DNA of 44,065 bases, taken from a virus. Its lineage: Duplodnaviria > Heunggongvirae > Uroviricota > Caudoviricetes. A program made the translations under genes and the position numbers. The notes beneath the pieces were generated by a model that did no database searches, was not told the DNA's origin, and worked only from the letters and a program-made list of their open reading frames with translations. The first letter of the stretch is position 1, and every line of letters begins with the position of its first letter. The stretch lies in IMG/VR virus record IMGVR_UViG_2778261088_000003, one strand, 5' to 3'. This document shows positions 26-3,286 of the stretch, in pieces.

Positions 26-439
26 TCAGCAAAAGGGGATGATAAGTTTATCACCACCGACTATTTGCAACAGTGCCCTATTTGGTATCCACAGGGCACC
101 GCTGCCACGATATTGTGGATGGTAAAAATCCCTAAGCATGGTGAAGCTGGTTGGTGGATGCTCTAGGATTGGGCGTATATCACCGGCAATAACCGTGTCC
201 AAATCCAGATAGAACAGATCATCGGTTATATCCGGTCGGAACAACTCGATTTTCGCCCACCAGCCACGGCACTTTTGCCACTGGTTGATCAATGGGATAA
301 CTTTGACGCCAGGTACATGTAAACACTTCAGGTCTGTCAGGCAAATAATTTCATAGTCTTTTGGCAGTTGATTAACCAGCCACTGCACATCGGAAGCGTT
401 ATAGTCACCACCAGAGCGAAGAACTAAAGCAATCTTCAT
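26..439 (-). CDS. hypothetical protein (137 aa), last gene of the phosphatase operon
   Basis: Complete ORF with ATG at 439 overlapping the stop of the upstream phosphatase gene (ATGA). No recognisable motif. Confidence 0.45.
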
Positions 440-1128
440 GCTGCACCATCACCTTTCACTTTCATCAATGTCAGGTTTCCGCAAAATACGGCACCAGTGT
501 CGATATACTGCTGATTCCAGAATGTCTTCGGGCTTTTCACCGGAGTGTGACCAAAGATAAAACGATCTGCGCCCGAAATTTCGCCACCAATATCATCCAT
601 CGAATCACTGATACGCTCGCGCGCCCAGACAACGTTGAAAAGCGGCACCTCCTTACCGAATTGGTATTCATTATCCGGATAGTCGGCATGGGCTATAACG
701 ATAGTTTCTTGCCCGGTGTTCAACTCAATGATATAGGGCAGACGCTTTACCAGCTCCACCAGCGCCCTGGCTAATATTTCCTGATCAGTGTCCAGCATGA
801 AGAACCATTGTCCGCCATTCATTAGCCAGTTATTCACGTTGCCATCAGGACTTAACGCATCGAGCATCAACCGCTCATGGTTCCCCATCACTGCCCTGAA
901 CCAGGGCATCTGCAATAGTTCCAGACATTCGACATTTTCAGTACCGCGATCGATAAGGTCGCCGACCGATATCAGTAAATCCTGCGCCGGGTCAAAATCC
1001 ACACGATGGAGTTCGGACATCAGTCTGGTGTAGCAACCATGCAGATCACCAACAACCCAGACATTCCTGTATTTGGTACCGTCGATACGGTGATAAATTG
1101 TGGGTGCCATCATGTATTCTTCAGCCAT
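436..1128 (-). CDS. ppp: Ser/Thr protein phosphatase, lambda-PPase (calcineurin-like) family
   Basis: GDLHG, GDLIDRG and GNHE metallophosphatase motifs; collinear with lambda PPase from [17 protein letters not shown] onward. Start may be ATG 1128 or the ATGATG at 1113/1110 overlapping the upstream stop. Confidence 0.85.
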
Positions 1129-1736
1129 TCTTTAAGAGTCATCTGCGGAATACCTCCCATTTTCCCGCATGAAACAACGTCAATCTGTTCACGCGCAGAC
1201 TGGAATAACAAAGGCAGGTGACTTAGATTTTTTGGCGTGCCGCCGGAGTGAACGCGTAGTTCTTGCGTAGCGTCAACGCCCACCAGAGCTACATGTTTGA
1301 ATCCGATATGGAAAGCCAGGTTCAGAGCACCATATGCACTATTGCCGCTGGCAATTTCATTCTCATCTTCGCAAAGGCCGAAATGTGCGGACCAGCGCCA
1401 CGCCCACCACTCGGGAGAATTCGTATTTTTTGGCTCCATGCCGCGTTCAGCCACACGACGGAAGCACAGAACGCCATCTCTGACTTCACGTTCTTTAACA
1501 TCGGGTAGTGCCATGCAATAACAAACACCACGGCGACGGCGGCCACGACCAACGCGCCGCATATTGTCTGGGGATGGATCAAGGGTGAAAAAATAAGAAG
1601 CGCGGTTAAGCCAGTCGATGGCCCCATTGACCGCTATAATCGGCACTCCGCGCGGCGCAACAAAGTTTGCGGCGCTTGGGCCACTGCCGACGATAATAAC
1701 GCGATCACTGCCTCTAAATTTATTCTTGGGAAACAT
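1110..1736 (-). CDS. Rossmann-like protein, paralog A (IIVGSGPS motif; possibly MptE/DUF115-like)
   Basis: N-terminal [25 protein letters not shown]...IIAVNGAID aligns with the N-terminus of the next gene; carries an Arg-rich insertion ([11 protein letters not shown]) absent from the paralog. Stop overlaps the phosphatase start. Confidence 0.5.
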
Positions 1737-2263
1737 TGAATTGCACTGCTCCTACTTGCATTCAAAATATGTAAATCTGCGTGTTTTTTGCGGGTATCCA
1801 GGAACTGCTGTTGCCATTTTGAAATAGACACCTGCGTTGGATTCCGTAGTGCTTGAGGGTGCGCGCCATGCCAATGAAGGCCGTTTTGCAGAGAACAGTC
1901 ATAGCCGACTAATACCACTACTTCAGCCCCTGATTCAGCAGCCAGACTGATAGCCTGCGCGCCGCTATTTACCCCTTCCGCCGGTCCACAATATCGCCTG
2001 TACTCCAACGAAAATGATTTCGCCGCCGCCAGGTTGGCTGTCACTTTGCGGAACCTCCCTCCCGGTATGGTGGAACCGTATTGCTTCCACCATGACAAAT
2101 CACCGGCGTATAAGGCATAAATGTCATCGAACATCTGCCAGGAATTGTTAACCGCGATGATTGAACAGCCAGTTTTTTCTATAGCAGCACAGTCCTCACG
2201 AGTGAGTGACGGACCGCTACCGACACAAAAAACAGTCCTAGTCGCCCTGGGTGGTATGTTCAT
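1634..2263 (-). CDS. Rossmann-like protein, paralog B (VFCVGSGPS motif)
   Basis: ORF track gives 1634..2296; ATG at 2263 (MNIPPRATRTVFCVGSGPSL...) gives 209 aa, matching the 208-aa paralog. Start uncertain. Confidence 0.5.
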   Translation of the reverse strand: MNIPPRATRTVFCVGSGPSLTREDCAAIEKTGCSIIAVNNSWQMFDDIYALYAGDLSWWKQYGSTIPGGRFRKVTANLAAAKSFSLEYRRYCGPAEGVNSGAQAISLAAESGAEVVVLVGYDCSLQNGLHWHGAHPQALRNPTQVSISKWQQQFLDTRKKHADLHILNASRSSAIQCFPRINLEAVIALLSSAVAQAPQTLLRRAECRL

Positions 2264-2393
2264 TCTCAGCTGCAAATTCAGCCTCCAGGCGAGCATTCAT
2301 TTCAGCGATTACAGGGTCCACTACAGCATCTGTTTCCTGTTCATTACGCGGCATGACCGATGCCAGCGACTCATAATTAACCTTGGATGACAC
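2238..2393 (-). CDS. small acidic protein (about 51 aa)
   Basis: In-frame GTG at 2393 preceded by GGGAGA 6 nt upstream, within track ORF 2238..2426. Low confidence. Confidence 0.3.
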   Translation of the reverse strand: MSSKVNYESLASVMPRNEQETDAVVDPVIAEMNARLEAEFAAENEHTTQGD

Positions 2394-2459
2394 GATTATT
2401 CTCCCGATGTTAAAGTGCACTACCACAAAGAGCGTACATGCACTAATTAATTTATTATT

Positions 2460-3038
2460 TTAAGCAGCATGCAACCACTTATCGCCGTTCAATACATGCT
2501 CAATAGCCTCACCCTTTTTAAGACTTATGTATTCCAGGATGGCGGTAATCGCTTGTTCTGCACCGTACGCAAGAACGACGTAGTAACCTTCCTCTCTAAG
2601 CCTGCGCATCCAGGCGATCTGCTCTTTCGTCGGGGCTTTACCATTTGGTTCTTTAAGCTCAATTCGCATGCCGTGATAAATACCGCATGCTTTATCGAGA
2701 CTCATGTCCGGATAACCTTTTTTCTGCCCTTCAGCCTTCATTTTCCCGGCGGTTGCTTTTGAACGTTTCCCTCCGTTAGGCGTTGCATGCAACAGCTCAT
2801 AGATGTCAGGGTGCTTGCGTTCGAAGTAATCAAAAATGAAAACCTGCTCGAAGTGCTCGCAATTTCCGTCGCGCAGGTCTGGGTTCTTTGCAAGTGCTGC
2901 AAGTGCCTTCGCATGTGGAGAAACTTCTTTTACCGGCGCAAGCGATAAGAATGGATCCTTTTTGGTTTTTGGCCTGGACCGCCCCTTATTTCGACGCTCA
3001 CTAAAAGCCTGAAACTCTTCCTCAGTAAAGCGCAACAT
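2460..3038 (-). CDS. VRR-NUC domain nuclease (PD-(D/E)xK superfamily)
   Basis: C-terminal GYPDMSL...GMRIELKEPNGKAPTKEQIAWM matches the VRR-NUC pattern (GxPD ... ExK ... Q). ATG at 3038. Confidence 0.7.
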   Translation of the reverse strand: MLRFTEEEFQAFSERRNKGRSRPKTKKDPFLSLAPVKEVSPHAKALAALAKNPDLRDGNCEHFEQVFIFDYFERKHPDIYELLHATPNGGKRSKATAGKMKAEGQKKGYPDMSLDKACGIYHGMRIELKEPNGKAPTKEQIAWMRRLREEGYYVVLAYGAEQAITAILEYISLKKGEAIEHVLNGDKWLHAA

Positions 3039-3040
3039 AA

Positions 3041-3286
3041 TCAGTCAAATCCTGCCGGTCGCATGCCATATTTACGCTGTTTTGCGGCCTGCTCTTCCCT
3101 GTGCCATTGCGCACATTCAGCGTCACAATAAATGCCTGATTCAATCGATTCATTGCAGTAACGACACTTCCCTGTAAATACCTGGCTCACGACCTGTGCC
3201 TGCTTTCTGATGTTATCGATGGCCATGTCTTTGAGAGCTTCTAACTGATTCATGCTCAGCTCTGCATCATCAACACGTTCTGCCAA
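3041..3286 (-). CDS. zinc-ribbon protein (CxxC-x9-CxxxC)
   Basis: CRYCNESIESGIYCDAEC motif; TTG start at 3286 with GAGGAA Shine-Dalgarno. Alternative ATG at 3253. Confidence 0.5.
   Translation of the reverse strand: MAERVDDAELSMNQLEALKDMAIDNIRKQAQVVSQVFTGKCRYCNESIESGIYCDAECAQWHREEQAAKQRKYGMRPAGFD

What the first reader, a model, noticed from the sequence alone, without database searches (positions are those of the whole stretch)
26..3286. Operon combining a zinc-ribbon protein, a VRR-NUC nuclease, two tandem paralogs and a lambda-type phosphatase
Seven translationally coupled minus-strand genes. The 208-aa and 209-aa proteins are paralogs sharing an N-terminal GSGPS nucleotide-binding loop, which I read as MptE/DUF115-like (a family linked to sugar-nucleotide transfer). 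One paralog carries an Arg-rich insertion ([11 protein letters not shown]) missing from the other, suggesting divergence after duplication. Co-expression with a protein phosphatase and a nuclease suggests a host-takeover or DNA-processing enzyme module of unknown function.
Basis: partly seen in the sequence, partly recalled or inferred. Interest (0 to 1): 0.5.

Follow-up and report, generated by a model that had tools for sequence, protein, structure and literature searches.

The report
Phage P1 pmgL–pmgQ operon, IS26-cut
This is the already annotated, dispensable pmgL–pmgQ operon of a P1-like phage-plasmid with its last gene cut by IS26; its only widely conserved part is three sugar-transferase-like genes (pmgO, pmgP, pmgQ) that travel together in many unrelated phages and whose target is still unknown.

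Summary
Window 78-3400 is 99.7% identical to phage P1 and carries the annotated operon pmgL-pmgM-pmgN-pmgO-pmgP-ppp-pmgQ. Positions 1-77 are an IS26 end.

Confirmed domain calls:
- PmgM is VRR-NUC (PDB 4qbl, E 3.5e-17).
- Ppp is lambda-type phosphatase (1g5b, E 6e-95).
- PmgO and PmgP are remote paralogues (profile-profile E 7e-14), not recent duplicates.
- The "Arg-rich insertion" is a 2-residue indel.
- PmgQ is GT8-like.

The seven genes do not behave as one machine. In the non-P1 loci only PmgO, PmgP and PmgQ co-occur, from Enterobacterales to Bacteroidota, in prophages and a jumbo-phage contig. They are also found fused in several orders. Ppp, PmgM, PmgL and PmgN accompany them only in P1-like elements.

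I read the trio as a glycosylation module active in lytic growth, with inferred donors CMP-Kdo and a UDP-hexose. The acceptor is unresolved: protein or LPS. Published single-gene knockouts show no plaquing defect. Here the module is broken.

The locus is known and its function is open. Moderate-to-low interest.

The parts
1..77 (.). Terminal 77 bp of IS26 (inverted repeat at 64-77); insertion point inside pmgQ
   Evidence: 100% match to IS26 in plasmid and phage records. P1 homology starts at base 78.
26..439 (-). Chimeric ORF: pmgQ codons 1-120 (window 78-439) plus 17 codons from IS26. It keeps the DxD motif but has lost the C-terminal HG-P-RPW part of the GT8-like domain
   Evidence: Intact P1 PmgQ is 233 aa. 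The PmgQ family profile hits GT8 enzymes: Gat1 6mw5 at E 1.6e-8 and glycogenin at about 4e-5.
436..1128 (-). ppp, lambda-type Ser/Thr protein phosphatase (metallophosphoesterase)
   Evidence: Pfam Metallophos E 8.7e-16, above threshold. Lambda phosphatase 1g5b at E 5.8e-95. Non-essential in P1.
1110..1736 (-). pmgP, single-domain MptE/DUF115-fold (Maf/Cst-like) protein. Motifs GSGPS, N37-G38, D53, N132-S-A, G153-V-D155, H173
1634..2296 (-). pmgO, remote paralogue of pmgP with the same fold. Its likely true start is Met12 at 2263. The last 34 codons overlap pmgP
2238..2426 (-). pmgN, small protein of unknown function (P1 annotation uses the start at 2393, giving 51 aa)
   Evidence: Identical to P1 PmgN. 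Only a PHROG of unknown function matches. Found only in P1-like loci.
2437..2453 (+). C1 repressor operator Oppp (Op83), between pmgM and pmgN
   Evidence: P1 annotation transferred; sequence identical.
2466..2492 (-). Predicted sigma-70 promoter PpmgN inside the 3' end of pmgM. The -10 hexamer reads CATGCT here versus TATGCT in P1
   Evidence: P1 annotation. One base differs, at window 2471.
2460..3038 (-). pmgM, VRR-NUC nuclease (PD...E-x-K: D111, E127, K129)
   Evidence: Solved VRR-NUC 4qbl at E 3.5e-17. Pfam VRR_NUC 21.3 bits, just under the cut-off of 23.8. PHROG 'Holliday junction resolvase' at 4.8e-27.
3041..3286 (-). pmgL, small four-Cys protein (C-x2-C-x10-C-x3-C), DksA/TraR-like zinc finger by PHROG
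   Evidence: PHROG 54 at E 1.6e-12. No significant Pfam or PDB match.
3323..3393 (-). Upstream control region: predicted promoters P1pmgL and P2pmgL, C1 operator O26/Op82 (3344-3360) and Lpa-dependent late promoter LPpmgL (3375-3393). It is shared divergently with tail gene 26
   Evidence: P1 annotation transferred; all elements identical in sequence.

Best explanation
The region is the C1-repressed, late-promoter-driven pmgL-pmgQ operon of a P1-like phage-plasmid, with its last gene cut by IS26. It is a mosaic, not one machine.

Parts that accompany the trio only in P1-like elements among the loci examined, with no shown link to the rest:
- PmgL, a small zinc-finger protein.
- PmgM, a VRR-NUC nuclease.
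- PmgN, function unknown.
- Ppp, a lambda-type phosphatase.

The evolutionarily coherent unit is PmgO + PmgP + PmgQ. PmgO and PmgP are two remote paralogues with the Maf/Cst-I/MptE fold. PmgQ is a GT8-like retaining glycosyltransferase.

I infer that the three act together, probably as a complex, in the cytoplasm of the lytically infected cell. There they would build a short glycan from donors that every Gram-negative host supplies. For PmgO/PmgP the donor would be a CMP-activated ulosonic acid, most simply CMP-Kdo. For PmgQ it would be a UDP-hexose.

The acceptor is not established. I lean slightly towards proteins: virion proteins in phages and Big_1 adhesins in chromosomal derivatives. LPS core is the alternative.

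In this window the trio is non-functional. PmgQ has lost its C-terminal half, and the -10 box of the internal promoter carries a T-to-C change.

Shown: identity with P1, folds, remote paralogy, co-occurrence, fusions and genomic positions. Inferred: enzymatic activity, donors, complex formation and acceptor.
For: Identity and regulation:
- 99.7% identity to P1, with its annotated operators and promoters.

Fold and family:
- PmgO and PmgP have the Maf/MptE/Cst-I fold.
- The two families are homologous over 163 columns.
- PmgQ is GT8-like, with a DxD motif and a C-terminal HG-P-RPW motif.

Co-occurrence:
- PmgP and PmgQ homologues sit together in nearly all non-P1 loci long enough to judge. A PmgO homologue is also present in most of them. 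The hosts include Citrobacter, Serratia, Pseudescherichia, Pseudomonas, Alloalcanivorax, Zhongshania, Gilvimarinus, Commensalibacter, Brevundimonas and Sinomicrobium, plus a 248-kb phage contig.
- Ppp, PmgM, PmgL and PmgN appear only in P1-like loci.

Natural fusions:
- PmgO-PmgP, PmgP-PmgQ, PmgQ-PmgP, PmgQ-PmgP-methyltransferase and methyltransferase-PmgP.

Accessory genes inside the module are typical glycan-tailoring enzymes:
- a fourth Nucleotid_trans-like glycosyltransferase, SAM methyltransferases and a sulfotransferase.

Genomic position is always among late or structural genes:
- directly after the HK97-type capsid gene;
- after the large terminase gene;
- in or beside the lysis cassette.

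Acceptor and donor hints:
- In the Pseudescherichia locus the three genes are interleaved with Big_1 genes. In the Serratia locus both PmgO copies lie among Big_1 genes and about 5 kb from the PmgP-PmgQ pair.
- No sugar-nucleotide synthesis gene was noted beside the trio in the loci whose neighbours were annotated. A Maf enzyme O-glycosylates protein with Kdo from CMP-Kdo in E. coli (PMC11339370).
Against: - No biochemical activity is known for any of the three proteins.
- The P1 proteins score below the Pfam threshold for PF01973.
- Single-gene P1 knockouts of pmg genes other than pmgA, B, C, G and R showed no plaquing or anti-restriction defect.
- The papers I found and read do not report P1 virion glycosylation. 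A term search of the P1 virion proteome paper found no occurrence of 'glycos'.
- Trio-bearing phages have unrelated capsid types, so no common virion acceptor is evident. What they share is an LPS-bearing host, which favours the LPS rival.
- The Big_1 association rests on about two independent chromosomal islands.
- The 'after the capsid gene' position may reflect one related phage lineage.
Confidence: 0.6

Rival explanations
1. The PmgO/PmgP/PmgQ trio modifies the host envelope glycolipid, that is LPS inner or outer core or another lipid-linked glycan. PmgO/PmgP would act as WaaZ-like Kdo transferases and PmgQ as a WaaO/WaaJ-like GT8 hexosyltransferase. During lytic growth this would mask or truncate the LPS receptor (P1 adsorbs to the core glucose), exclude superinfection, spare progeny from debris, or weaken the outer membrane at lysis.
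For: - GT8 includes the LPS core glucosyl- and galactosyltransferases, and Cst-I/II sialylate lipooligosaccharide (established knowledge; fold hits).
- The precomputed Pfam list for the fusion P0051 carries a faint PF27901 WaaZ_KDO_III hit.
- K-12 WaaZ aligns weakly to the nucleotide-binding motif of both families (E about 0.002).
- Every host in the set is a diderm, while the phages have unrelated virion proteins.
- The trio is often adjacent to or inside lysis cassettes.
- In P1 the genes also have a C1-controlled early promoter.
Against: - The WaaZ similarity is weak: hhalign probability 14-16%, and the Pfam hit is marked 'faint'.
- Known phage LPS-conversion genes are typically expressed in lysogens (established knowledge). 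These genes are repressed by C1 and sit in late operons. They also occur on a 248-kb phage contig that showed no lysogeny genes in the 18.6 kb examined.
- LPS already in the outer membrane would be untouched within one latent period.
- The rival does not explain the interleaving with Big_1 adhesin genes.
Confidence: 0.3
2. PmgO and PmgP are not glycosyltransferases. They are MptE- or thiamine-pyrophosphokinase-like kinases that transfer phosphate or pyrophosphate from ATP to a sugar, metabolite or glycan. One possibility is a phospho or methyl-phospho cap made together with the associated methyltransferases.
For: - Pfam places the homologues in the family named after MptE.
- Methyltransferase fusions and neighbours recur.
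- Each family has invariant Asp residues that could bind Mg-ATP.
Against: - The best structural hit for both proteins is the glycosyltransferase Maf, and the hit lists include Cst-I and GT29 sialyltransferases.
- The PmgO profile aligns its GPSL and SG...GxD motifs to Cst-II, though only weakly (E 0.14).
- The obligate partners are glycosyltransferases: PmgQ and a fourth Nucleotid_trans-like enzyme.
Confidence: 0.1
3. One reading: all seven genes form one host-takeover or DNA-processing module. In it the nuclease, the phosphatase and the paralogues act on a common substrate, for example DNA modification or repair.
For: - The genes are co-transcribed from shared C1-controlled and late promoters in P1.
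- Gene spacing is tight at five of the six junctions.
- PmgM is a bona fide VRR-NUC nuclease.
Against: - The nuclease, phosphatase, PmgL and PmgN are absent from every non-P1 locus that carries the trio.
- An operator and a predicted promoter split the operon between pmgM and pmgN.
- No match to known defence families.
- The chromosomal copies of the trio sit among adhesin genes, not DNA-metabolism genes.
- All seven genes are individually dispensable.
Confidence: 0.04

Closest known systems
Bacteriophage P1 pmgL-pmgM-pmgN-pmgO-pmgP-ppp-pmgQ operon (NC_005856 78602-82150; P7 homologues hdmB/hdmC/hdmD)
   Same: 99.7% nucleotide identity, the same gene order, and the same C1 operators and late promoter.
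   Different: pmgQ is cut after codon 120 by IS26. There are three amino-acid changes (PmgQ N94H, Ppp I7M, PmgM Y190H) and one base change in the -10 box of PpmgN.
Maf (motility accessory factor) flagellin nonulosonic-acid glycosyltransferases, PDB 5mu5, Pfam PF01973 central domain
   Different: Maf is a protein of about 630 aa with three domains, encoded beside flagellin and nonulosonic-acid synthesis genes. PmgO and PmgP are single domains of about 200 aa. They come as a pair, with a GT8-like partner, in phage late regions. Sequence identity is 16-17%.
Campylobacter Cst-I/Cst-II sialyltransferases (CAZy GT42), PDB 2p56/1ro7
   Different: Sequence similarity is not significant. Alignment of the catalytic His could not be tested. 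Laboratory E. coli K-12 makes no CMP-sialic acid (established knowledge), so a different donor such as CMP-Kdo would be needed.
MptE 6-hydroxymethylpterin pyrophosphokinase (PDB 8sd5) and thiamine pyrophosphokinases
   Different: There is no folate or thiamine pathway context. The obligate partners are glycosyltransferases.
GT8 retaining glycosyltransferases that act on proteins (Gat1 6mw5, glycogenin, GlyE 5gvv) or on LPS core (WaaO/WaaJ)
   Same: The PmgQ family profile hits them at E 1.6e-8 to 6e-5. PmgQ has a DxD motif and a C-terminal H-G-x-P-R-P-W motif that resembles the GT8 HxxGxxKPW motif.
   Different: No Pfam Glyco_transf_8 hit. PmgQ is shorter, at about 200-240 aa. The copy in this window lacks the C-terminal half.
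Mycobacteriophage virion glycosylation genes (glycosyltransferases encoded beside capsid genes)
   Same: Phage-encoded glycosyltransferases sit next to structural genes. In several prophages the trio lies directly after the major capsid gene. Mycobacteriophage literature links such genes to capsid glycosylation.
   Different: The enzyme families and the hosts (diderm) differ. No glycosylated virion protein has been shown for P1 or any trio-bearing phage.

Membership tests
Phage P1 pmgL-pmgQ operon | Near-identical sequence and gene order | tested here: met
   9 differences in 3323 bases and the same seven genes.
Phage P1 pmgL-pmgQ operon | C1 operators Op82/Op83 and late promoter LPpmgL | tested here: met
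   The sequences are identical to P1. PpmgN has one change in its -10 box.
Phage P1 pmgL-pmgQ operon | Intact pmgQ (233 codons) | tested here: not met
   IS26 end at window 1-77. Only codons 1-120 remain.
Pfam PF01973 MptE-like / DUF115 | HMM score at or above the gathering threshold (34.6 bits) | tested here: not met
   PmgO scores 23.4 bits and PmgP 20.9 bits. Relatives reach 44 bits (P0051, P0336), and 33/35 and 43/47 homologues hit the family at E<=0.01.
Pfam PF01973 MptE-like / DUF115 | Fold shared with solved members (Maf 5mu5, MptE 8sd5) | tested here: met
Maf flagellin glycosyltransferases | Three-domain architecture of about 600 aa and flagellin or nonulosonic-acid gene neighbourhood | tested here: not met
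   PmgO and PmgP are single domains of 208-220 aa. Their neighbours are phage late genes.
GT42 sialyltransferases (Cst-I/II) | Significant sequence similarity and an aligned catalytic His | tested here: inconclusive
GT42 / Maf-type enzymes | Transfer from a CMP-activated ulosonic acid | not testable with these tools
   This needs enzyme assays. The CMP-Kdo donor is inferred from the host range, the lack of sugar-synthesis genes noted beside the trio, and CbMaf promiscuity.
CAZy GT8 (PmgQ) | Sequence-profile similarity to solved GT8 enzymes, a DxD motif and a C-terminal His motif | tested here: met
   Gat1 at E 1.6e-8, glycogenin about 4e-5 and GlyE 6e-5. D79-L-D81 is invariant and H208-G209 near-invariant. 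This holds for intact P1 PmgQ; the window copy lacks the His motif. Pfam Glyco_transf_8 itself is not hit.
GT73 / WaaZ KdoIII transferase | Significant similarity to E. coli WaaZ | tested here: inconclusive
   hhalign against the single K-12 WaaZ sequence gives E about 0.002 and probability 14-16%, confined to the C-terminal motif. There is a faint precomputed PF27901 hit on P0051. A WaaZ family profile could not be built.
VRR-NUC nucleases (PmgM) | Similarity to a solved VRR-NUC and the PD...ExK catalytic motif | tested here: met
   4qbl at E 3.5e-17. D111, E127 and K129 are read directly from the sequence. Pfam scores 21.3 bits against a cut-off of 23.8.
Lambda-type Ser/Thr phosphatase (Ppp) | Metallophos domain with GDxHG / GDxxDRG / GNHE motifs and close similarity to lambda phosphatase | tested here: met
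   1g5b at E 5.8e-95. Pfam gives 59.4 bits against a cut-off of 21.5. The motifs GDLHG, GDLIDRG and GNHE are visible in the sequence.
TraR/DksA C4 zinc finger (PmgL) | CxxC...CxxC zinc-binding signature and a family HMM hit | tested here: inconclusive
   PHROG 54 'DksA-like zinc-finger' at E 1.6e-12. There is no Pfam zf-dskA_traR hit and no PDB match. The Cys spacing is C-x2-C-x10-C-x3-C.

The most novel reading that the evidence does not exclude
PmgO, PmgP and PmgQ would be a widespread, phage-borne glycosylation system expressed in lytic growth. It would put a Kdo- and hexose-containing glycan on proteins. The targets would be virion proteins in phages of Gram-negative bacteria, including the model phage P1, and Big_1 (intimin/invasin-type) adhesins where the genes have been domesticated in Pseudescherichia and Serratia chromosomes. 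To my knowledge that would be the first virion-glycosylation system described for phages of diderm bacteria, and a new use of CMP-Kdo.
Probability: 0.25. Interest if true: 0.7.

Novelty: already known. Interest (0 to 1): 0.33.

Why it matters
The locus itself is textbook P1, so the finding adds nothing new as a sequence feature.

What may matter is the reframing. Three P1 genes have been labelled 'putative morphogenetic function' in the deposited P1 annotation. They form a conserved, often fused, three-enzyme unit. That unit recurs in the late regions of unrelated phages across several bacterial phyla, and in adhesin islands.

If the unit glycosylates virion proteins or LPS, it would be an unstudied layer of phage-host interaction. 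It could affect immune or receptor masking, virion stability or superinfection control. It would also be directly testable in one of the most tractable phage systems.

For this particular element the module is already inactivated by IS26, which agrees with its dispensability.

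Tried and rejected
- The first profile-profile comparison of the PmgO and PmgP families was an artefact. The PmgO alignment contained the PmgO-PmgP fusion P0051. I repeated it without that protein.
- The search for related loci in viral contigs with the PmgO alignment returned only P1 copies (80 of 80 at 97-100% identity), so it gave no diversity.
The PmgP alignment worked.
- The WaaZ link was tested with the single K-12 sequence and is weak.
- The PmgP profile found nothing in PDB by sequence. 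PmgO found only marginal Cst-II hits.
- NCBIfam had no model for PmgO, PmgP, PmgQ, PmgM or PmgN. PADLOC had no defence-family hit for any of the seven proteins.
- The afdb50 fold library was unavailable. BFVD returned only uncharacterised phage and giant-virus DUF115 proteins.
- Literature searches for a function of pmgO/P/Q, for DUF115 in phages, and for prophage glycosyltransferases beside lysis cassettes found nothing relevant.
- PmgQ structure prediction was not possible because both prediction jobs went to PmgO and PmgP.
- I rejected DNA hypermodification as the function. I know of no hypermodified bases in P1 DNA, and the chromosomal copies of the trio sit among adhesin genes.
- The exact IS26-pmgQ junction was not found as one contiguous match among the top-listed PLSDB records.

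Full report
**What is there.** Window 78-3400 matches phage P1 (NC_005856, AF234172) at 99.7% identity, and matches P7, SJ46, RCS47 and other P1-like phage-plasmids at 97.6-99.9%. The P1 annotation names the genes pmgL, pmgM, pmgN, pmgO, pmgP, ppp and pmgQ. It places two C1 operators (Op82 upstream of pmgL, Op83 between pmgM and pmgN), sigma-70 promoters and the late promoter LPpmgL. A base-by-base comparison found 9 differences in 3323 bases, giving three amino-acid changes. The operators and the late promoter are identical. One change turns the -10 box of the internal promoter PpmgN from TATGCT into CATGCT. The rest of the window is also P1/P7-like.

**The left end.** Window 1-77 is the end of IS26, with its inverted repeat at 64-77. 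P1 homology starts at base 78, inside pmgQ. Intact PmgQ is 233 aa. Here only codons 1-120 remain, and the ORF then runs 17 codons into IS26.

**Coupling.** Five of the six gene junctions are tight: a 2-nt gap, or overlaps of 4, 19, 59 (26 from the alternative start) and 103 nt. pmgM and pmgN are separated by 33-66 nt that contain the C1 operator. A predicted promoter for pmgN lies inside the end of pmgM. "Seven translationally coupled genes" is therefore an overstatement. At the least there are two transcription units that can also be read through from the late promoter.

**Domain calls.**
- Ppp is a close relative of lambda phosphatase (1g5b, E 5.8e-95; Pfam Metallophos above threshold).
- PmgM matches a solved VRR-NUC protein (4qbl, E 3.5e-17) and has the PD...ExK residues. 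Its Pfam score is just under threshold.
- PmgL has four cysteines and hits a PHROG named DksA-like zinc finger (E 1.6e-12). It matches nothing in Pfam or PDB.
- PmgN has no informative match.
- None of the seven proteins matches a PADLOC defence family.

**The paralogues.** Pairwise, PmgO and PmgP share only 14 of 36 N-terminal residues (E 0.004). Their PHROG families cross-hit at 1.8e-5 and 6e-4. After I removed a fusion protein that had corrupted a first attempt, family profiles built from 34 and 47 homologues aligned over 163 columns at 98% probability, E 7e-14. They are real but ancient paralogues, and both families exist side by side far outside P1.

The Arg-rich stretch of PmgP aligns to a loop of PmgO. 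Only two residues (RG) are an insertion, confined to the P1 clade, and R61 and R68 are near-invariant across the family. The larger PmgP-specific insert lies at about residues 80-115.

- then thiamine pyrophosphokinases and GT29 sialyltransferases.

**PmgQ.** A profile of 43 homologues hits GT8 retaining glycosyltransferases: the Skp1-glycan galactosyltransferase Gat1 (E 1.6e-8), glycogenin (about 4e-5) and GlyE (6e-5). D79-L-D81 is an invariant DxD motif. The C-terminal H-G-x-P-R-P-W motif resembles the GT8 signature. The IS26 cut removes that C-terminal part, so the copy in this window should be inactive.

**What belongs together.** I fetched loci that encode relatives of these proteins from GTDB species genomes and from public assemblies, and scored their ORFs with profiles of each gene.

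PmgP and PmgQ homologues occur together in nearly all loci with enough flanking DNA, and a PmgO homologue is also present in most of them. These include:
- a Citrobacter rodentium lambdoid prophage;
- prophages of Pseudomonas, Alloalcanivorax, Zhongshania, Gilvimarinus, Commensalibacter, Brevundimonas, Citrobacter sedlakii and Sinomicrobium (Bacteroidota);
- several metagenomic phage contigs;
- a 248-kb phage contig.

In a few loci one of the three was not detected: Methylophilaceae, Longimicrobiales, Buttiauxella, one metagenomic contig and the Hafnia prophage.

Ppp, PmgM, PmgL and PmgN were found only in the three P1-like loci.

Natural fusions link all three proteins in several orders: PmgO-PmgP, PmgP-PmgQ, PmgQ-PmgP, PmgQ-PmgP-methyltransferase and methyltransferase-PmgP. 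The family is modest in size, with 635 clusters at 50% identity at E<=1e-3.

Extra genes lie inside the module in different phages. They are a fourth Nucleotid_trans-like glycosyltransferase, SAM methyltransferases and a sulfotransferase. These are typical glycan-building and glycan-tailoring enzymes.

The conserved unit is therefore the trio. In the P1 lineage the lambda-type phosphatase gene sits between pmgP and pmgQ, and the nuclease and zinc-finger genes lie upstream.

**Where the trio sits.** It is always among late genes:
- directly after the HK97-type major capsid gene in prophages of Pseudomonas, Zhongshania, Gilvimarinus and a Methylophilaceae genome;
- directly after the large terminase gene in Commensalibacter;
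- beside or inside the lysis cassette in six or more loci.

In P1 it shares a divergent late promoter region with tail and baseplate genes.

Two chromosomal contexts stand out. In Pseudescherichia and a related genome the three genes are scattered, on different strands, among five genes for Big_1/invasin-type inverse autotransporters. In Serratia plymuthica two PmgO copies lie among Big_1 genes, while PmgP-PmgQ lie between a holin gene and a lysozyme gene.

**Mechanism.** The shared fold, the GT8 partner, the tailoring enzymes and the fusions point to a three-enzyme glycosylation unit.

No sugar-nucleotide synthesis gene was noted beside the trio in the loci whose neighbours were annotated, although the hosts span several phyla. 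The donors should therefore be universal metabolites of diderm bacteria. For a Maf/Cst-like enzyme the simplest candidate is CMP-Kdo. Clostridium botulinum Maf does transfer Kdo from CMP-Kdo to flagellin when expressed in E. coli (PMC11339370). For PmgQ the donor would be a UDP-hexose. All of this is inference.

The acceptor is open.
- For proteins: late expression, the position next to capsid genes, the Big_1 islands, and the fact that the closest solved relatives of both enzyme types include protein glycosyltransferases.
- For LPS: the only thing all trio-bearing phages share is an LPS-bearing host. Other points are the faint WaaZ signal, the lysis-cassette association, and the fact that P1 uses the LPS core as its receptor.
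- A pyrophosphokinase activity for PmgO/PmgP cannot be excluded from the fold alone.

**What is known.** The P1 virion and knockout study reports that 24 of 29 single-gene knockouts had no plaquing or anti-restriction defect. Only pmgA, B, C, G and R were essential (PMC9024508). The genome-wide CRISPRi study lists pmgL, M, O, P, ppp and pmgQ as non-essential. pmgN scored essential by CRISPRi but non-essential by deletion (PMC10695390). RefSeq already labels PmgO 'alpha-2,3-sialyltransferase', PmgQ 'glycosyltransferase' and PmgM 'VRR-NUC'. I found no paper that assigns a function to PmgO, PmgP or PmgQ, or that describes the trio as a unit.

**Verdict.** The fold assignment is right, but the seven-gene functional module is not supported. 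The locus is already known. Its function is unknown, and it is dispensable in the laboratory. The residual interest lies in the conserved PmgO/PmgP/PmgQ unit, which is cheap to test in P1. In this element the unit is already broken by IS26.

Noticed in passing
window 1-77: An IS26 end abuts pmgQ at base 78, and the contig starts inside IS26. The element is a P1-like phage-plasmid carrying an IS26 insertion. The exact junction was not found as one contiguous match among the top-listed PLSDB records.
   Followed up: partly
window 2471: One base change turns the -10 hexamer of the C1-controlled internal promoter PpmgN from TATGCT (P1) into CATGCT. The same change makes PmgM Y190H. It may weaken early expression of pmgN-pmgQ in this element.
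   Followed up: no
window 43700-44065: The right end of the window lies in a tail-fibre-like coding region with a 300-bp direct repeat: 43700-43765 is repeated at 44000-44065. The contig probably ends because of this repeat.
   Followed up: no
L107 1236-17532 (Pseudescherichia), also L091-L095: A chromosomal island in which PmgO, PmgP and PmgQ homologues are scattered among five Big_1/invasin-type inverse-autotransporter genes. No phage genes occur within 18 kb.
   Followed up: partly
L004 4014-19721 (Serratia plymuthica): PmgQ-PmgP lie between a holin gene and a phage-type lysozyme gene. Nearby are lipase, lipoxygenase and Big_1 genes and two PmgO copies. The layout resembles a holin/endolysin-type secretion cluster more than a prophage.
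   Followed up: no
L112 9001-12438 (248-kb phage contig): A jumbo-phage contig carries PmgO, a PmgP-like MptE protein, a Nucleotid_trans-like glycosyltransferase and a 233-aa ORF in the PmgQ position (not scored with the PmgQ profile). A GIY-YIG endonuclease gene is inserted between the first two.
   Followed up: no
L109 8166-8555 and L097 about 7290-7570: Between the capsid gene and the trio, two related prophages encode small proteins with Ser/Thr/Pro-rich tails, for example a (TEP)n repeat. These could be glycosylation targets, which is speculative.
   Followed up: no
window 1634-1736: pmgO and pmgP overlap by 103 nt. The overlap encodes the poorly conserved C-terminal tail of PmgO and the N-terminus of PmgP up to its GSGPS loop. 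Similar overlaps (L110, 94 nt) and an outright fusion (P0051) occur elsewhere.
   Followed up: partly
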